NCBI GenBank assembly: GCA_041665285.1
Contig: JBAYJC010000003.1
Coordinates: forward strand, 65,902 to 129,901
Direction: 5' to 3'
Source: Patescibacteria group bacterium
GTDB lineage: Bacteria > Patescibacteriota > Patescibacteriia > 2-12-FULL-60-25
DNA: 64,000 nt
The position numbers were made by a program, and so were the translations under genes. Under the pieces are notes generated by a model. The model was not told where the DNA came from, searched no databases, and worked only from the letters and a program-made list of their open reading frames with translations. Positions 31,321-36,166 of this stretch are shown here, in pieces; position 1 is the first letter of the stretch, and every line of letters starts with the position of its first letter.

Positions 31321-32153
31321 GCCCACTCGGGATGACTGAAGGTCCGTCGTCATAAGACTACAGCCAAAACGTCATCCCGATCCCCTTTGGGCGACTAATT
31401 AGAAAACGTCATCTGACTGATACGTCTACGTCGCCCGTCACCTTCGCGAGGACTCAAAAAGAGCTGTCGAAAGACTAGCCTTCACCTGTCCTCGCGCCTC
31501 TTTCCCTCTGGTGATCGCAAGATGACCGCGGAAAAAGAGGAGCTACTTAGGTCCGTGTGCCTAAGGCTGCATCGATTGCGTCGCCCCTCCTCATCTCGGG
31601 ATGACTGAACCGTGTCTGTCGCAAGACTCTCGTTTCCACGTCATCCAGCTCCTTTCTCCATAGGCGACTCATACCTGGTTGTCACAAGACTCATTAGCGA
31701 GCGTCGCCTATCTAACCTCGCGAGGACTCTCAAGACGCTGTCGAAAGACTGCGAACTGTATGTCCTCGCGCCTCTTTTCCTCTTTTGATGGCTATCAAAA
31801 CGGGAAAAGGGGTGACTGTGTATATGGTGTCAAAGCCTTTAGGTCAGCTGTCATCCCCGCAATTTGGAAGGCGACTACATCTCGATTGTCACCAGACTCG
31901 AGGTTGACTGTCGGCCCTCCTCCAATCTTGGAGCGACTAGCCTCGCTTTGTGGAAACACTCAATGGGACGCGTCGCTACAATTCGTTCGTGATGACTGCA
32001 CATGACTTGTCGAAAGACTAGGTTACGGGCGTCATCCAGCTCCTTTTTCCGTAGGCGACTCGTAGATGGTTGTCGTAAGACTCATCAGCGAACGTCGCCT
32101 ATCTAACCTTCGCGAGGACTTCAGAGCAACCGTCGAAAGACTGTCCGCGGAAT
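31321..32153 (+). repeat. Structured modular repeat array, part 1 (13 cassettes). Candidate multi-guide ncRNA.
   Basis: Long modules (GTC...GACT, types A-G) alternate with an 11-nt mini-hairpin module (GTC-GNRA-GAC-T), separated by about-11-nt variable segments. There is no credible ORF on either strand. Confidence 0.85.
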
Positions 32154-32169
32154 GTCCTCCCTCTATCCC

Positions 32170-32195
32170 GCGCCTCAACAAGGCGTTTTTTATTT
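32170..32195 (+). terminator. Weak intrinsic terminator ending array part 1
   Basis: CGCC-tcaacaa-GGCG followed by TTTTTTATTT. The stem is short. Confidence 0.35.
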
Positions 32196-32314
32196 GCCCC
32201 CTCCTCTTGACAGATACACTGCTTTTTGGTTACCTACTGCTTCGCTTTGGCACATGCCTCAAGCGAATGCCCCGGGATTCCCTCGGGGTACCTGTCACAG
32301 ACATGAGGTGAGTC

Positions 32315-33955
32315 ATGGAATGCTCGATCAGCCACGCGCCCAAGGGCACTACGTTCGTCATCATCAACAAGGTCAGCGAGCTGGACGGCAAGACCTCAAC
32401 CGAGGTGCTCCGCTTCCGGATCGGCAAGGACATGCTCCGCGTGCCCAAGGCCAATGCCAAGAAGAAGGACAAGCTCGCGTTCGTCGCGACGCTCAAGCCC
32501 GGCGACCGGGTGTTCATGGAGATGGGCGGCGCGGGCGACCGCGTGGCCCTGGCCGCGACCGCGTTCGGCGCCCAGGTCTTCCGCGTCCCGAACTTCCAGC
32601 TCGGAAGGGAGGACGTGGCCAAGATCTGCGCGCAGTACAGCGCCGAGGTCAAGATGGAGCGGGCCCACGGCGACGAGACGAGCGAGGAGCTGACCCAGCG
32701 CAAGGCGCGGGCCATGGCCCTCCTCCTCCTCGGCGAGCACGAGCCCGGGCGATTCTACGCCACGGAGAACCGAGACGTGTCGGTCCTCCAGATCGGCTAC
32801 GAGTACCGCGCGTACCGGAGGATGCAGAAGTCCTACCAGCGCGCGCTCCTCGGGCTCATGGCCGCGTACCGTGACATGGCGTTCATCGTGATCGCCAAGC
32901 AGAGGCAGACGCTCGCCAAGGCCCTGGACGACAAGGCCGTGTACAACGAGGTGTTGGACATGGCCGTGCGCGACATGCTCGGCGGGGACATCAGCGAGAC
33001 GGACATCAAGGACTTCAAGGCCCTGGTCGGCCAGAAGTTCGGGGATGCGATCCCCAACCTCGCGAGCAAGGAGGGCATGAAGATCTTCGTGCAGGTGCTC
33101 ATGGACTCGGACCCCACGTCCGCCACCGCGATCCGGCGCATGAAGGAGCAGGCGAAGAAGATCAAGAAGCTGCTCGAGCCCGGCAAGGTGCGGGTCCCCG
33201 GCACGAAAAAGTTCGAGGCCGTGCCCGGACACTTCCTGTACGAGCAGGTCTTCTCCAAGATCCCCGGCATCGGGCACATCACCGCCGCCCGCTTCATCCG
33301 GCAGATCTCGGACATCCGGTCGTTCAAGGACGCAGGGCACCTCAAGGCCTTCGCCGGGTACCACCAGTTCCCGGATGGCTCGCGCGCGCGCCGCGTGAAG
33401 GGCAAGGCCTCCAACTGGTCCCCGGACCTGAAGCAGGCCGTGTACCAGTTCACGGTCGCGACGGTCAAGCTCCCGGACAGCCCGTGGCGCTTCAAGCTCG
33501 ACTGCCGCAAGGCGTACGAGCTCTGGAAGCTCCTCCGCGAGCGCCAGGAGGAGGCGCTGAAGCTCGGCGTGACCGCGGTGATCATGCCCACGGAGTACGC
33601 GACCAAGGTCGTGAACTGCGCCTACGACTTCGCCCCCACGGACTACCTCAAGCTCGGCGACCACGTGCAAAGCCTGCGCAAGCTGGCCGGCATGGACGCC
33701 AAGGACGACGAGGAGGAGGACGAGAAGAGCGAGGACGACGAGGAGGAGGACGAGGAGGAGACCGTGGTCGTCAAGGACCCGGTGCTCGGCAAGCTCATCA
33801 AGGGCCTGAAGGGCCGGGCCCACCAGCGGGGCCTGCGCTGGCTCGGCCAGCAGTTGCTCGTCCACGTCTTCTGGGAGTGGCGCGTGGCCATCGGCCTCTC
33901 CGGCCGGCCCCAGCACCAGGCCGCGGGCATGAGCCCCACCTACCGCGCGGAGTAG
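32315..33955 (+). CDS. IS110-family (DEDD/RuvC-like + Tnp_20 HhH) recombinase-like protein, extended, with acidic tail
   Basis: RBS GAGGTG. VFMEMGGAGDRVALAATAFGAQVFRVPN matches the IS110 V.MEATG.Y...LA..L...G..V..VNP block. SKIPGIGHITAARFIRQISDIRSFKDAGHLKAFAGYHQFPDGSRARRVKGKASNWSPDLKQAVY matches SIPG(I/V)G..TA...I.EIGD..RF.....L.AYAGL.P....SG......G.ISK.G...LR. The antisense ORF 32396-33958 is a GC artefact. Confidence 0.7.
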   Translation: MECSISHAPKGTTFVIINKVSELDGKTSTEVLRFRIGKDMLRVPKANAKKKDKLAFVATLKPGDRVFMEMGGAGDRVALAATAFGAQVFRVPNFQLGREDVAKICAQYSAEVKMERAHGDETSEELTQRKARAMALLLLGEHEPGRFYATENRDVSVLQIGYEYRAYRRMQKSYQRALLGLMAAYRDMAFIVIAKQRQTLAKALDDKAVYNEVLDMAVRDMLGGDISETDIKDFKALVGQKFGDAIPNLASKEGMKIFVQVLMDSDPTSATAIRRMKEQAKKIKKLLEPGKVRVPGTKKFEAVPGHFLYEQVFSKIPGIGHITAARFIRQISDIRSFKDAGHLKAFAGYHQFPDGSRARRVKGKASNWSPDLKQAVYQFTVATVKLPDSPWRFKLDCRKAYELWKLLRERQEEALKLGVTAVIMPTEYATKVVNCAYDFAPTDYLKLGDHVQSLRKLAGMDAKDDEEEDEKSEDDEEEDEEETVVVKDPVLGKLIKGLKGRAHQRGLRWLGQQLLVHVFWEWRVAIGLSGRPQHQAAGMSPTYRAE

Positions 33956-33984
33956 CACCTTTCATCTACCAACCAGCATGCTCT

Positions 33985-36166
33985 GCGCCATGACTCATGT
34001 GCACAGGGCTCCTTTTTTCCCTTCCGATCAAGAGATCGAGATGGAAAAAGGGATGACTACACTCCGGACGGCCGTTGGCCTATAGGAAAATCGTCACCCC
34101 TGCAATTTGGAAGGCGACTGTAGCCCATCCGGAGCAAGCCTGGAGTTACGGCGTCGCCTTCCTTCTCTCTTCGGTAGCGACTACACGAAAGGTGTCCCTG
34201 ACTCGTAAAGGGTTGTCACTACCGATACCTGTTGAGCGACTCAATCCATTGCGTCGAAAGACTCCAGCCACGTTGTCGCTCATGTAACTTCGCGAGGACT
34301 TAGGGGTGGTTGTCGAAAGACCTTTGCCGCTGATGTCCTCGCGCCTCTTTTCCCTTGGTGATCACAAGATAACCGCGGAAAAAGAGGAGTGACTCATCAG
34401 CGACTGTAGTAATACTGTGCCGCGTTTGTCACTCCTCCTCATCTTGGGATGACTCAAATGCCGACGTCGAAAGACTGTCGTCCAACCGTCATCCCGTTCC
34501 TTTCACCTGTTGGGTGACTTTCGCTGACGCGTCAAAAGACTAATCTGGCTTTGTCGCCCACCCAAACCTCGCGAGGACTGAAGATACAACGTCGAAAGAC
34601 TGTCGGTCCTCTGTCCTCGCGCCTCTTTTCCTCTTTCGATGATGATCGAGATGGGAAAAGGGGCGACTGCTCGCGTACTGTTGCAAGACTTGGAGTATGC
34701 CGTCACCCCTGCAATTTGGAAGGCGACTACTGCCCGCGTGGCGCAAGCCTATGGTACGTACGTCCCCTTCCTTCTCTCTTCGGTGGCGACTACAGTGCAA
34801 ACGTTGAATGACTGCACCCAGAGTGTCGCTACCGATTCCTGTTGGGCGACTCGGCGTGAATCGTCGAAAGACTTTACTACGTGTGTCACCCACCTGACTT
34901 CGCGAGGACTTGGTGCCGGATGTCGAAAGACTTCACCGCTGCTGTCCTCGCGCCTCTTTTCCCTTGGTGATCACAAGATGACCATGGAAAAAGAGGAGCG
35001 ACTCTTCTCTGAGCGTAGAAATACTCGAAGTTGGCTGTCGCTCCTCCTCATCTCGGGATGACTGATCGAGACGCGTGCAAGACTGCCCAAAGATTGTCAT
35101 CCCGCTCCTTTCCCCGTTGGGCGACTTTCGTCAGCTCGTCGAGAGACTGTCGTGTTGATGTCGCCCACCCAACCTCGCGAGGACTTTGCACCGCATGTCG
35201 AAAGACTGCCACGCGAATGTCCTCGCGCCTCTTTTTCTCTTTCGATAACGATCGAGATGGAAAAAGGGGTGACTTATCATGACACGTCGTAAGACTCGAG
35301 GTGATGTGTCTCCCCTGCAATTTGGAAGGCGACTGCCGATGCAATGGCGTAAGCCTGTGGTGCGTACGTCGCCTTTCTCCTCTCTTCGGTAGCGACTCAG
35401 ACAGGACCGTCGCAAGACTCTCTGTGCATTGTCGCTACTGATCCCTGTTGGGCGACTCTCGGTCGAATGTCAAAAGACTAGACCGTGTTTGTCGCCCACC
35501 CAACATCGCGAGGACTTTGATTCGGCCCGTCGAAAGACTCAGCGCGCAGTGTCCTCGCGCCTCTTTTCCCTTGGTGATCACAAGATGACCATGGAAAAAG
35601 AGGAGCGACCTGGAGGCCGATGTGGCAACACTGTAGATGGTCAGTCGCTCCTCCTCATCTCGGGATGACTTGAAGCCGGTTGTCATCAGACTCAGGTTTG
35701 CCTGTCGTCCCGCTCCTTTCACCTGTTGGGTGACTTTCGCTGACGCGTCAAAAGACTATTCAGGCGTTGTCACCCGCCTAACCTCGCGAGGACTTTCGTA
35801 GCCCAGTCGAAAGACTAGATTTGCCGTTGTCCTCGCGCCTCTTTTCCTCTTTCGATGATGATCGAGATGGAAAAAGGGGTGACTGACCGCGACCAGTCAA
35901 AAACTATCGTTCAGCTGTCACTCCTGCAATTTGGAAGACGACTCATGTACCGACGTCGTAAGACTACACTTCGTGCGTCGCCTTCCTCTTCTATCCGGTA
36001 GCGACTCAGGTAGGACTGTCGTAGGACTCTCCATGCCACGTCGCTACTGATTCCCGTTAGGCGACTGTCGATACCTCGTCGAAAGACTGTCGTGTTGACG
36101 TCGCCCACCCAATCTCGCGAGGACTGGGACCGCTTTGTCGCAAGACTTTAGTACAGACGTCCTCGC
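33985..36166 (+). repeat. Structured modular repeat array, part 2 (32 cassettes, about 3.5 super-repeats of about 606 nt). Candidate multi-guide ncRNA.
   Basis: Module order is C2-E-F-G-B-C1-D-A-B, repeated with C2 starts at 34613, 35219 and 35829. Every junction carries GACT-N11-GTC(GNRA)GACT-N11-GTC. Confidence 0.9.

What the first reader, a model, noticed from the sequence alone, without database searches (positions are those of the whole stretch)
31950..35775. Compensatory substitutions preserve cassette stems and the mini-hairpin, which argues for function as RNA (or ssDNA)
Stem covariation between super-repeats:
- The C1 3' arm GAGGAGTGAC (34384-34393) pairs with D GTCACTCCTC (34428-34437). 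The next unit has GAGGAGCGAC (34993-35002) with GTCGCTCCTC (35037-35046).
- G ...TGAGCGAC (34233-34240) pairs with B GTCGCTCA (34275-34282), versus TGGGCGAC (35449-35456) with GTCGCCCA (35491-35498).
- A ...GGGTGAC (35728-35734) pairs with B GTCACCC (35769-35775), versus GGGCGAC (35119-35125) with GTCGCCC (35160-35166).

The mini-hairpin keeps a 3-bp stem plus tetraloop while its sequence changes:
- GTC-GAAA-GAC (many copies)
- GTG-GAAA-CAC (31950)
- GTA-GTAA-TAC (34406)
- GTA-GAAA-TAC (35015)
- GTG-GCAA-CAC (35622)
- GGC-GCAA-GCC (34740)
- GGC-GTAA-GCC (35346)
- GGCC-GTT-GGCC (34070)

Several remaining differences are G:U-compatible. Double changes that maintain pairing are not expected for a DNA protein-binding repeat or for neutral decay.
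Basis: seen in the sequence. Interest (0 to 1): 0.85.

Follow-up and report, generated by a model that had tools for sequence, protein, structure and literature searches.

The report
Stem-loop TIGR guide-RNA array with TasR
The covarying hairpin cassettes are real; they are 45 units of a TIGR guide-RNA array flanking its Tas protein gene in a Patescibacteria chromosome, a class of RNA-guided DNA-binding system first described in 2025, so the RNA reading is right but the kind of system is already known.

Summary

**What is there.** The region holds 45 hairpin units on the + strand: 13 at 31325-32165 and 32 at 34046-36170. Each unit reads 5' stem…GAC | U | N10-Y | GUC-NNNN-GAC | U | N10-Y | GUC…3' stem.

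**Covariation.**
- Within the window, 90% of stem cells pair, against 73±1% in shuffles. There are 112 double-change cells against 40±4.5 (0/500 shuffles reach this).
- RNAalifold finds the same fold de novo.
- Units from four other genomes keep the architecture with different stems.
- G:U pairs are no commoner than A·C mismatches.

**The gene between the arrays.** The 546-aa ORF at 32315-33955 is a Tas protein. Its best sequence and fold matches are TIGR-TasR 9MTY and the TasH structures.

**Identification.** This is a stem-loop TIGR-Tas locus of the CPR TasR clade (Faure 2025; Xu 2026 preprint). NCBI annotates the protein as "transposase".

**Possibly new details.**
- A nine-unit, roughly 610-nt super-repeat.
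- Scaffold 88% identical between copies, against spacers 33%.
- Graded residual similarity between paralogous spacers.

No spacer targets were found in the window.

The parts
31289..31297 (+). CTTGACAGA, candidate -35-like promoter element 38 nt before the first unit of the upstream array
   Evidence: One of only two copies in the 64-kb window; the other precedes tas. Expected by chance 0.47; 9 of 100 shuffles give 2 or more. Promoter function is inferred, not shown.
31325..32165 (+). Upstream TIGR stem-loop array, 13 tigRNA units, several with degenerate stems
   Evidence: Parsed. All 13 are hit by covariance model R1 on the + strand.
32170..32195 (+). Intrinsic-terminator-like hairpin plus T run ending the upstream array
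   Evidence: GCGCCTCAACAAGGCGT then TTTTTATTTG.
32206..32214 (+). Second CTTGACAGA, candidate promoter element for tas plus the downstream array
   Evidence: It lies 109 nt before the tas ATG. Function is inferred.
32315..33955 (+). tas gene: 546-aa TasR-like protein with an N-terminal RNase H-like domain, a coiled coil and a Nop/IS110-type C-terminal RNA-binding domain. Annotated at NCBI as 'transposase' (MFA6429483.1).
   Evidence: Pfam Transposase_20 at E 3e-10. NCBIfam TIGR_Tas_endo at 77 bits, below the cut-off of 100. PDB 9MTY (TasR) at E 1.7e-8, and 1.3e-19 with the family profile. The top six Foldseek PDB hits are all TasR or TasH. Identity to the NCBI record.
33694..33760 (+). Acidic low-complexity insert within Tas (aa ~460-483)
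   Evidence: Tandem Repeats Finder; pLDDT below 50.
34003..34045 (+). First long linker hairpin (type 2), which opens the downstream array. No terminator lies between the tas stop codon and the array.
   Evidence: Sequence; alignment of super-repeats.
34046..36170 (+). Downstream TIGR stem-loop array: 32 units, which is 3.5 copies of a nine-unit super-repeat of about 610 nt. Copy boundaries are 34003-34612, 34613-35218, 35219-35828 and 35829-36170.
34567..34624 (+). Best-scoring single unit, given as an example: CGCGAGGAC | U | GAAGAUACAA-C | GUCGAAAGAC | U | GUCGGUCCUC-U | GUCCUCGCG
   Evidence: Covariance model score 56.3 bits; anatomy.
34620..34665 (+). Long linker hairpin type 2, about 20 bp. 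Other copies are at 31769-31814, 35226-35271 and 35836-35881. Its arms overlap the arms of the flanking units.
   Evidence: Minimum-free-energy fold; conserved between super-repeats.
34953..34996 (+). Long linker hairpin type 1. Other copies are at 31497-31540, 34344-34387 and 35560-35603.
36175..36212 (+). Terminator-like G+C-rich hairpin followed by GTTTTATTTTT, ending the downstream array
   Evidence: Sequence. The scan reported the same hairpin on the minus strand, so it may act in both directions.

Best explanation
This is a stem-loop TIGR-Tas locus (tandem interspaced guide RNA array plus TIGR-associated protein) in the chromosome of a Patescibacteria (CPR) bacterium.

**Proposed mechanism**
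1. Two + strand transcripts are made: the upstream array, and tas together with the downstream array. Each ends at an intrinsic terminator.
2. Each transcript folds into 13 and 32 autonomous hairpin units respectively.
3. In each unit, a variable 8-10-bp stem that always closes with G-A-C/G-U-C encloses two 10-nt variable spacers. Each spacer is preceded by CU (box C-like) and followed by YG (box D-like). A 3-bp mini-hairpin, usually with a GNRA-type tetraloop, separates the two spacers.
4. The precursor is cut in the linkers into single tigRNAs.
5. Each tigRNA is bound by a dimer of the 546-aa TasR-like protein through its Nop/IS110-type C-terminal domain.
6. Spacer A pairs with one DNA strand and spacer B with the other strand of an adjacent half-site, giving an 18-20-bp target.
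7. The first canonical RuvC aspartate appears to be missing, and the characterised CPR relatives are nuclease-dead. The likely output is therefore DNA binding and transcriptional repression rather than cleavage.

**Shown here:** the unit anatomy, covariation of the stem and mini-hairpin, restriction to one strand and one locus, the Tas identity of the protein, and conservation of the architecture in four other genomes.

**Inferred from published homologues:** transcription, processing, Tas binding, dual-strand DNA targeting and repression.
For: - **Anatomy.** 45 units share one template. The loop is 34 nt in 36 of them.
- **Box motifs.** U follows GAC in 106-107 of 107 units. The nucleotide before GUC is a pyrimidine in 104-105 of 107. 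The 10 positions in between are unconstrained.
- **Covariation within the window.** 90.4% paired against 72.7% in shuffles; 112 against 40 double-change cells; 0/500 shuffles. The de novo RNAalifold fold is identical.
- **Covariation across genomes.** 105 distinct units from five genomes give 87.8% paired against 70.1±0.7%, and 277 against 92±8 double-change cells. Up to six pair types occur at one stem position. The mini-hairpin is 98.7% paired, with GUC/GAC, GCC/GGC, GGC/GCC and GUA/UAC variants.
- **Repeat/spacer contrast.** Between super-repeat copies the scaffold is 88% identical and the spacers 32-34%.
- **Specificity.** Covariance-model hits fall only in the two arrays flanking the ORF, on the ORF's strand. 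The same holds in loci L001, L002, L004 and L005.
- **Protein, by sequence.** NCBIfam TIGR-Tas endonuclease model 1.4e-21. 9MTY TasR at 1.3e-19, TasH at 9e-4, IS621/ISCro4 at ~0.005-0.009.
- **Protein, by fold.** AlphaFold2 model with pLDDT 78; its six best PDB fold matches are all Tas proteins.
- **Terminators.** One at each array end.
- **Literature.** Stem-loop arrays are defined in PMC12045711 (section 9). The CPR TasR clade is described with a hairpin in the loop, 10-nt spacers, arrays on both sides of tas, a 547-aa CsTasR, dead RuvC and repressor activity in bioRxiv 10.64898/2026.09.09.750476.
Against: - There is no expression, processing or binding data for this locus.
- The NCBIfam Tas model scores 77 bits, below its curated cut-off of 100, and matches only the C-terminal domain.
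- The N-terminal domain has no sequence-level match to RuvC. Its nuclease state is inferred from the absence of an acidic residue in strand 1. Invariant D64, D75 and E115 leave a non-canonical active site possible.
- No DNA target for any spacer pair was found in the 64-kb window.
- The conserved CUU motif reported at stem bases and in box C is not evident here. The third box C position is unconstrained.
- The mini-hairpin is 3 bp, not the 5 bp reported for CsTasR.
- Units taken from the other genomes were picked with a stem filter, which inflates the percentage paired.
Confidence: 0.93

Rival explanations
1. The units are box C/D-like guides that direct RNA modification, for example 2'-O-methylation of rRNA or tRNA. 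Tas would act as a Nop5-like scaffold that recruits a methyltransferase in trans, and the target would be RNA rather than DNA.
For: The Nop domain and the unit architecture are homologous to box C/D sRNPs (PMC12045711, Fig. 7 legend). In L001 and L005 a SpoU-family methylase gene lies directly after the array, and in L002 a pseudouridine synthase gene lies nearby.
Against: The window has no such neighbour; it has ruvA, a response-regulator-like gene, TrmB and gyrA instead. Spacers are not shared between genomes, whereas guides against conserved rRNA or tRNA sites should be. Single 10-mers match the window, including its three tRNAs, at chance level: 11 matches against 10.5 expected. Characterised Tas proteins bind DNA and showed no activity on RNA.
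Confidence: 0.03
2. An IS110/IS1111-family insertion sequence whose flanking non-coding RNA is a bridge or seek RNA, here amplified in tandem.
For: Pfam Transposase_20 matches. There are weak hits to the NCBIfam IS110 model and to IS621 and ISCro4. NCBI calls the protein a transposase.
Against: The IS110 model scores 37.6 bits against a cut-off of 140, and Tas structures outrank the IS110 transposases. There are 45 single-loop units rather than one two-loop bridge RNA. In L001, L004 and L005 the gene sits in the same valS-DHH-tas-array context. No second copy of any unit or of the gene exists elsewhere in the window.
Confidence: 0.02
3. A DNA-level repeat: REP- or CRISPR-like elements, protein-binding palindromes, or ssDNA hairpins used in replication or recombination.
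For: Hairpins are symmetric, so both strands fold about equally well. G:U pairs are not enriched over A·C mismatches.
Against: The unit is asymmetric and strictly oriented: CU lies 5' and YG lies 3' of each spacer, and all units sit on the tas strand. Stem sequences change freely while pairing is kept, which does not fit a sequence-specific duplex DNA site. Terminators close each array. There are no cas genes and no 25-36-nt repeats. Rfam has no matching family.
Confidence: 0.02

Closest known systems
Stem-loop TIGR arrays of the CPR TasR clade, e.g. Candidatus Staskawiczbacteria CsTasR (bioRxiv 10.64898/2026.09.09.750476)
   Same: The host is a CPR bacterium. The protein length is close (546 aa here, 547 aa for CsTasR). 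Arrays lie on both sides of tas. Each unit has two 10-nt spacers with a hairpin between them. Stems are variable palindromes conserved only next to the box motifs. The canonical first RuvC aspartate appears to be missing.
   Different: The mini-hairpin is 3 bp plus a tetraloop, not 5 bp. No conserved CUU is evident. The insertion between strands 3 and 4 of the N-terminal domain is about 30 residues, not about 80. The locus holds 45 units, against a mean of about 7 per stem-loop array computed from the preprint's totals (17,756 tigRNAs in 2,559 arrays). Sequence identity to CsTasR could not be measured because its sequence is not held here.
Dual-repeat TIGR-TasR, Thermoproteota TaTasR (PDB 9MTY; Faure et al. 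2025, PMC12045711)
   Same: It is the best match by sequence and by fold. The dual-spacer guide logic and box C/D-like motifs are shared, and a terminator ends the array.
   Different: TaTasR is 331 aa with an active RuvC. Its array alternates constant edge and loop repeats and yields 36-nt tigRNAs. Here the edge repeats are replaced by unit-specific stems, units are about 55-60 nt plus linkers, and the published Y/H processing loop is reported absent from stem-loop clades.
IS110-family bridge-RNA recombinases (IS621, ISCro4)
   Same: The C-terminal RNA-binding domain (Transposase_20) is homologous, and guide segments sit in internal loops.
   Different: There is no mobile-element structure. 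There are many single-loop guides rather than one two-loop bridge RNA. Scores are far below the family cut-off.
Archaeal and eukaryotic box C/D sRNPs (Nop5/Nop56/58)
   Same: Both have a Nop-domain protein, box C/D-type motifs that flank roughly 10-nt guides, and a terminal stem.
   Different: No fibrillarin or L7Ae partner is evident, no k-turn consensus (RUGAUGA/CUGA) is present, and published Tas proteins target DNA.
CRISPR arrays
   Same: Conserved scaffold alternates with hypervariable spacers. The arrays sit next to the effector gene and are read as a long precursor.
   Different: The spacers are two 10-nt halves that act on opposite DNA strands. The repeats are structure-conserved, not sequence-conserved. 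There are no cas genes and no known adaptation machinery.

Membership tests
TIGR-Tas, stem-loop type | An adjacent gene encodes a Tas protein with a Nop / IS110-type RNA-binding domain | tested here: met
   9MTY TasR at E 1.3e-19 with the family profile. The top six Foldseek PDB hits are all Tas proteins. NCBIfam TIGR_Tas_endo at E 1.4e-21, though 77 bits is below the cut-off of 100.
TIGR-Tas, stem-loop type | Tandem units, each carrying two 8-12-nt variable spacers flanked by box C-like and box D-like motifs | tested here: met
   45 units of the form CU-N10-YG … CU-N10-YG. Spacers are 32-34% identical between paralogous copies, against 88% for the scaffold.
TIGR-Tas, stem-loop type | Variable but consistently palindromic sequences enclose each spacer pair in place of edge repeats | tested here: met
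   About 90% of cells pair, with compensatory change at 7-9 of the 10-11 outer-stem pairs tested.
TIGR-Tas, stem-loop type | The array lies upstream and/or downstream of tas, in the same orientation, and ends with a rho-independent terminator | tested here: met
TIGR-Tas, stem-loop type | The array is transcribed and processed into unit-length tigRNAs that co-purify with Tas | not testable with these tools
   Shown only for homologous systems (PMC12045711 section 9; 2026 preprint).
TIGR-Tas, stem-loop type | Spacers A and B pair with opposite strands of an adjacent DNA target | tested here: inconclusive
   No target above shuffled background in the 64-kb window, in either geometry. The rest of the genome and its mobile elements were not available.
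CPR TasR sub-clade (nuclease-dead repressors) | An N-terminal RuvC-like domain whose canonical catalytic residues are substituted | tested here: inconclusive
   The AlphaFold2 model shows a strand-strand-strand-helix-strand-helix-strand-helix order, and the full length aligns to TasR. No conserved acidic residue sits in strand 1 (consensus YAxAHAPKG). No residue-level superposition was possible, and invariant D64, D75 and E115 remain unexplained.
IS110 family transposon with bridge RNA | A full-length match to the IS110 transposase (DEDD plus Tnp domains) above the family cut-off, and a mobile-element structure | tested here: not met
   NF033542 scores 37.6 bits against a cut-off of 140. The gene keeps a conserved chromosomal position in three related genomes.
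CRISPR-Cas | Sequence-identical repeats of 25-36 nt separated by spacers of about 30 nt, with cas genes nearby | tested here: not met
   Unit anatomy; neighbouring genes.
Any Rfam RNA family | A match at gathering score | tested here: not met
   Only three tRNAs are found in the window.

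The most novel reading that the evidence does not exclude
In this TasR sub-clade, arrays grow by tandem duplication of multi-unit blocks, here nine units of about 610 nt. 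Neighbouring units within a block carry mutually non-complementary ("orthogonal") stems, so that each unit folds on its own. New guide specificities then arise in place, by divergence of the duplicated spacers, rather than by capture of foreign DNA.

Supporting observations:
- Paralogous units retain graded spacer similarity of 22, 21, 19, 17, 17 and 16 of 22 positions. With one exception, this is seen only within a locus, and always between units of the same stem class.
- L005 has an exact three-unit duplication.
- No adaptation genes are present.

If this reading is correct, it would speak to the stated open question of how TIGR arrays acquire spacers.
Probability: 0.3. Interest if true: 0.6.

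Novelty: new member of a known kind. Interest (0 to 1): 0.35.

Why it matters
The finding shows that reading raw sequence can recover a TIGR array that standard annotation misses. NCBI labels the protein "transposase", NCBIfam's Tas model falls below its cut-off, and Rfam has no matching family.

With 45 units, the locus is one of the larger stem-loop arrays. It lies on a 147-kb chromosomal contig with housekeeping neighbours, whereas most TIGR loci sit on short metagenomic contigs.

Two features bear on questions the TIGR papers call open, namely how arrays expand and where spacers come from:
- the nine-unit super-repeat, with its sharp contrast between scaffold and spacer conservation;
- the graded residual similarity between paralogous spacers.

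The basic claim, that these are structured RNAs, is no longer new.

Tried and rejected
- **Self-target search in the window.** I tested spacer A followed by the reverse complement of spacer B, and the reverse order, as 11+11 and as 10+10 with gaps of 0-2 nt. Hits equal the shuffled background: 7 against 4.7 at 5 mismatches and 2 against 1.1 at 3 mismatches. Single 10-mers gave 11 matches against 10.5 expected.
- **Strand of function from G:U against A·C counts.** No asymmetry in the window, 15 against 12. The 29 against 10 seen across genomes is biased, because my unit finder accepted G:U pairs.
- **Strand of function from folding energy.** Both strands fold well (z = -5.6 and -5.1).
- **Spacer turnover rate from L001 against L005.** The TasR proteins are 83% identical and the flanks are 82-93% identical at the nucleotide level. 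No spacers are shared, but synonymous sites are probably saturated at this distance, so I do not claim accelerated turnover.
- **Is this locus already catalogued?** Accession MFA6429483.1 is absent from the held supplementary text of Faure 2025. The TIGRSafari resource is not available here. The exact protein is not in the contig look-up.
- **Scans of viral, genome or metagenome collections for spacer targets.** Not run. An 18-nt core would give several chance hits per pattern, only about 10 of the 45 spacer pairs could have been scanned, and the 2026 preprint reports the same false-positive problem.
- **Sequence evidence for the RuvC domain.** Pfam, NCBIfam and PDB searches give no N-terminal match.

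Full report
**1. Checking the observation.** The two "C:A mismatches" are real, but they lie at 34178/34218 and 34847/34888.

Walking through the region gives 45 units built on one template:
- a 5' stem that always ends in GAC;
- a U;
- 11 nt;
- a 10-nt mini-hairpin, usually GUC-GAAA-GAC;
- a U;
- 11 nt;
- a 3' stem that always starts with GUC.

The enclosed loop is 34 nt in 36 units and 33 or 35 nt in the rest. Thirteen units lie at 31325-32165 and 32 at 34046-36170, all on the + strand. Between them is a 546-codon ORF (32315-33955, +).

**2. Is the covariation more than chance?**
- On the 45-unit alignment A1, the 10-bp outer stem plus 3-bp mini-hairpin is 90.4% paired, against 72.7±1.1% when 3' letters are shuffled among units (0/500 shuffles).
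- There are 112 double-change cells, against 40.3±4.5 (0/500).
- With the 3' partner slid by 1-3 columns, only 32-52% of cells pair.
- RNAalifold predicts the same structure without being told it; 8 of 12 pairs are compensated.

Units come in stem classes, and most of this signal is between classes. I therefore also permuted 3' arms only within a class:
- 6 compensated cells (about 5 events) against 1.9 expected; 5 of 2000 permutations reach 6;
- 13 single changes that remain paired through G:U;
- 23 single disruptive changes, many of them in outer stem positions or in the more degenerate upstream array.

The remark that leftover differences are G:U-compatible does not discriminate: the stems hold 15 G:U cells and 12 A·C cells. 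Both strands also fold about equally well (z = -5.6 and -5.1).

**3. What it is.**

*The protein.*
- Pfam Transposase_20 matches aa 311-385.
- The best NCBIfam hit is NF052498, "TIGR-Tas system RNA-guided endonuclease" (E 1.4e-21, 77 bits, below the cut-off of 100). The IS110 model reaches 37.6 of 140 bits.
- Against PDB sequences the best hit is 9MTY, TIGR-TasR (E 1.7e-8; 1.3e-19 with a 14-member family profile). TasH (9e-4) and the IS110-family transposases IS621 and ISCro4 (about 0.005-0.009) follow.
- An AlphaFold2 model (pLDDT 78, pTM 0.76) has an N-terminal domain with an RNase H-like order of strands and helices, long coiled-coil helices and a helical C-terminal domain. Its six best fold matches in the PDB are TasR and TasH complexes and nothing else.

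*The published definition.* Faure et al. 2025 (PMC12045711) define TIGR arrays. [quoted passage not shown]

The 2026 preprint from the same laboratory (bioRxiv 10.64898/2026.09.09.750476) describes a CPR clade of large TasR proteins:
- arrays lie on both sides of tas;
- the tigRNAs have 10-nt spacers and a hairpin in the inter-spacer loop;
- stems are conserved only next to the box motifs;
- the RuvC domains are dead;
- the proteins act as RNA-guided transcriptional repressors;
- CsTasR is 547 aa.

*The fit to the units here.* The nucleotide after GAC is U in 106-107 of 107 units. The nucleotide before GUC is a pyrimidine in 104-105 of 107. The ten positions in between are unconstrained. Each half is therefore CU-N10-YG.

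*Host and context.* The ORF is 100% identical to NCBI MFA6429483.1, "MAG: transposase [Patescibacteria group bacterium]", on a 146,910-bp contig. Its neighbours are housekeeping genes: ruvA, a FemAB-family gene, gyrA and a TrmB-type regulator. This is a CPR chromosome, not a phage.

**4. Related loci.** Full-length relatives are rare: about 14 clusters at 50% identity among 1.84 billion representatives.

Four homologous loci with 36-47% protein identity (L001, L002, L004, L005) carry the same unit template on the tas strand, on one or both sides of the gene. Their stems are different, for example GCGCGCGAC/GUCGCGCGC and GAGGUGAC/GUCACCUC. L002 also has different mini-hairpins: GCCGCAAGGC, GGCGUAAGCC and GUCACACGAC.

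A covariance model built only from the window's units finds about 90 further units at E ≤ 1e-3 in these loci, essentially all on the tas strand. It finds nothing else in the 64-kb window.

On 105 distinct units from the five genomes, the structure is 87.8% paired against 70.1±0.7%. There are 277 against 92±8 double-change cells, and up to six pair types at a single stem position. One caveat applies: I selected the foreign units with a stem filter, which inflates the percentage paired, though not the diversity of pair types.

**5. How it most likely works.**

*Shown here.* The units are autonomous hairpins with two hypervariable 10-nt segments in a conserved frame. They are strictly co-oriented with tas. 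Terminator-like hairpins with T runs close both arrays (32170-32195 and 36175-36212). No terminator separates tas from the downstream array.

*Suggestive only.* CTTGACAGA occurs just twice in the window, once in front of each presumed transcription unit.

*Inferred from homologues.* The transcripts are cut in the linkers. Each tigRNA is held by a Tas dimer. Spacer A pairs with one strand and spacer B with the other strand of adjacent half-sites. The published 8-nt 3' overhangs imply a target that reads spacer A followed by the reverse complement of spacer B.

*Nuclease state.* The family has no conserved acidic residue in the first strand (consensus YAxAHAPKG), and both characterised stem-loop TasR proteins are inactive. 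I therefore favour binding and repression over cleavage. This step is the least secure, because D64, D75 and E115 are invariant and unexplained.

*Targets.* I found no target for any spacer pair in the window. The TIGR papers state that natural targets are generally unknown.

**6. What goes beyond the published description.**
- The downstream array is 3.5 copies of a nine-unit super-repeat of about 610 nt. Within it, neighbouring units have different stems, and two kinds of long (15-20-bp) linker hairpin recur.
- Between copies the scaffold (stems plus linkers) is 88% identical, the mini-hairpin 82%, and spacers A and B 32.5% and 33.5%, which is near random.
- Some paralogous units still share spacer sequence. 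Same-class pairs with 8 or more of 11 identities number 8 of 186, against 8 of 1794 for different classes.
- Over both spacers, the top pairs score 22, 22, 22, 21, 19, 17, 17 and 16 of 22. All are between units of the same stem class, and all but one lie within a single locus. They include an exact three-unit block duplication in L005.
- Spacers are otherwise not shared between genomes, not even between L001 and L005, whose TasR proteins are 83% identical.

This pattern fits array growth by block duplication followed by spacer divergence. At these distances I cannot separate fast spacer turnover from ordinary saturation, so I report it as a lead and not a result. At 45 units the locus is large for a stem-loop array, for which the preprint's totals give a mean of about 7. 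Arrays of about 30 units or more also occur in L001 and L005, so large size looks like a trait of the sub-clade.

**7. Verdict.** The object is a member of a kind described in 2025-2026, a stem-loop TIGR-Tas system of the CPR TasR clade. Standard annotation misses it.

I rate it as a new member of a known kind, with interest 0.35. The residual interest lies in the super-repeat organisation and in what it may say about how TIGR arrays expand.

Noticed in passing
window 18081-20408: A G+C-rich island (0.69-0.72, against about 0.52 around it) holds 744-codon ORFs on both strands. Neither has a Pfam match.
   Followed up: partly
window 31289-31297 and 32206-32214: CTTGACAGA occurs only at these two places in 64 kb, each just upstream of a presumed TIGR transcription unit. 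They are candidate promoter elements. Statistical support is weak: 9 of 100 shuffles give two or more copies.
   Followed up: partly
window 31497-31540, 34344-34387, 34953-34996, 35560-35603 (type 1); 31769-31814, 34012-34055, 34620-34665, 35226-35271, 35836-35881 (type 2): Two kinds of long (15-20-bp) hairpin without spacers recur once each per super-repeat. Their arms overlap the stems of the flanking units, so the folds compete. They may be processing sites. This was not tested.
   Followed up: partly
L001 8856-9422, L005 9064-9618, L002 10034-10957: In related genomes the array is followed by a SpoU-family RNA methylase gene (L001, L005) or lies near a pseudouridine synthase gene (L002). 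L001, L004 and L005 share valS-DHH-tas synteny. The window has different neighbours, so the tas-plus-array module has moved as a unit.
   Followed up: no
L005 7880-8146 and 8458-8724: An exact duplication of a three-unit block with identical spacer pairs, and L001 7184/8365 with 21 of 22 identical spacer positions. These are direct evidence of recent block duplication inside TIGR arrays.
   Followed up: yes
window 34519-34552 and 35735-35768: Two units one and a bit super-repeats apart share an identical spacer A (UUCGCUGACGC) and 8 of 11 positions of spacer B. Their stems show the series C-G (35126 unit), U-G (34519 unit), U-A (35735 unit) at the same pair.
   Followed up: yes
window 33374-33394 (Tas aa 354-360): The invariant DGSRARR motif of this Tas sub-clade aligns with SGSSVNR of the ISCro4 transposase. 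Whether it corresponds to the catalytic-serine region of IS110 recombinases was not resolved.
   Followed up: no
window 33694-33760: An acidic low-complexity stretch (DDEEEDEKSEDDEEEDEEE) lies inside Tas and is predicted to be disordered. The covariance model detects no tigRNA unit inside the gene, although the 2026 preprint reports such units in some tas genes.
   Followed up: partly
window 10893-10940 and 46403-46475: Short tandem repeats unrelated to the array: a 23-nt unit repeated 2.1 times with 100% identity, and a 27-nt unit repeated 2.6 times.
   Followed up: no
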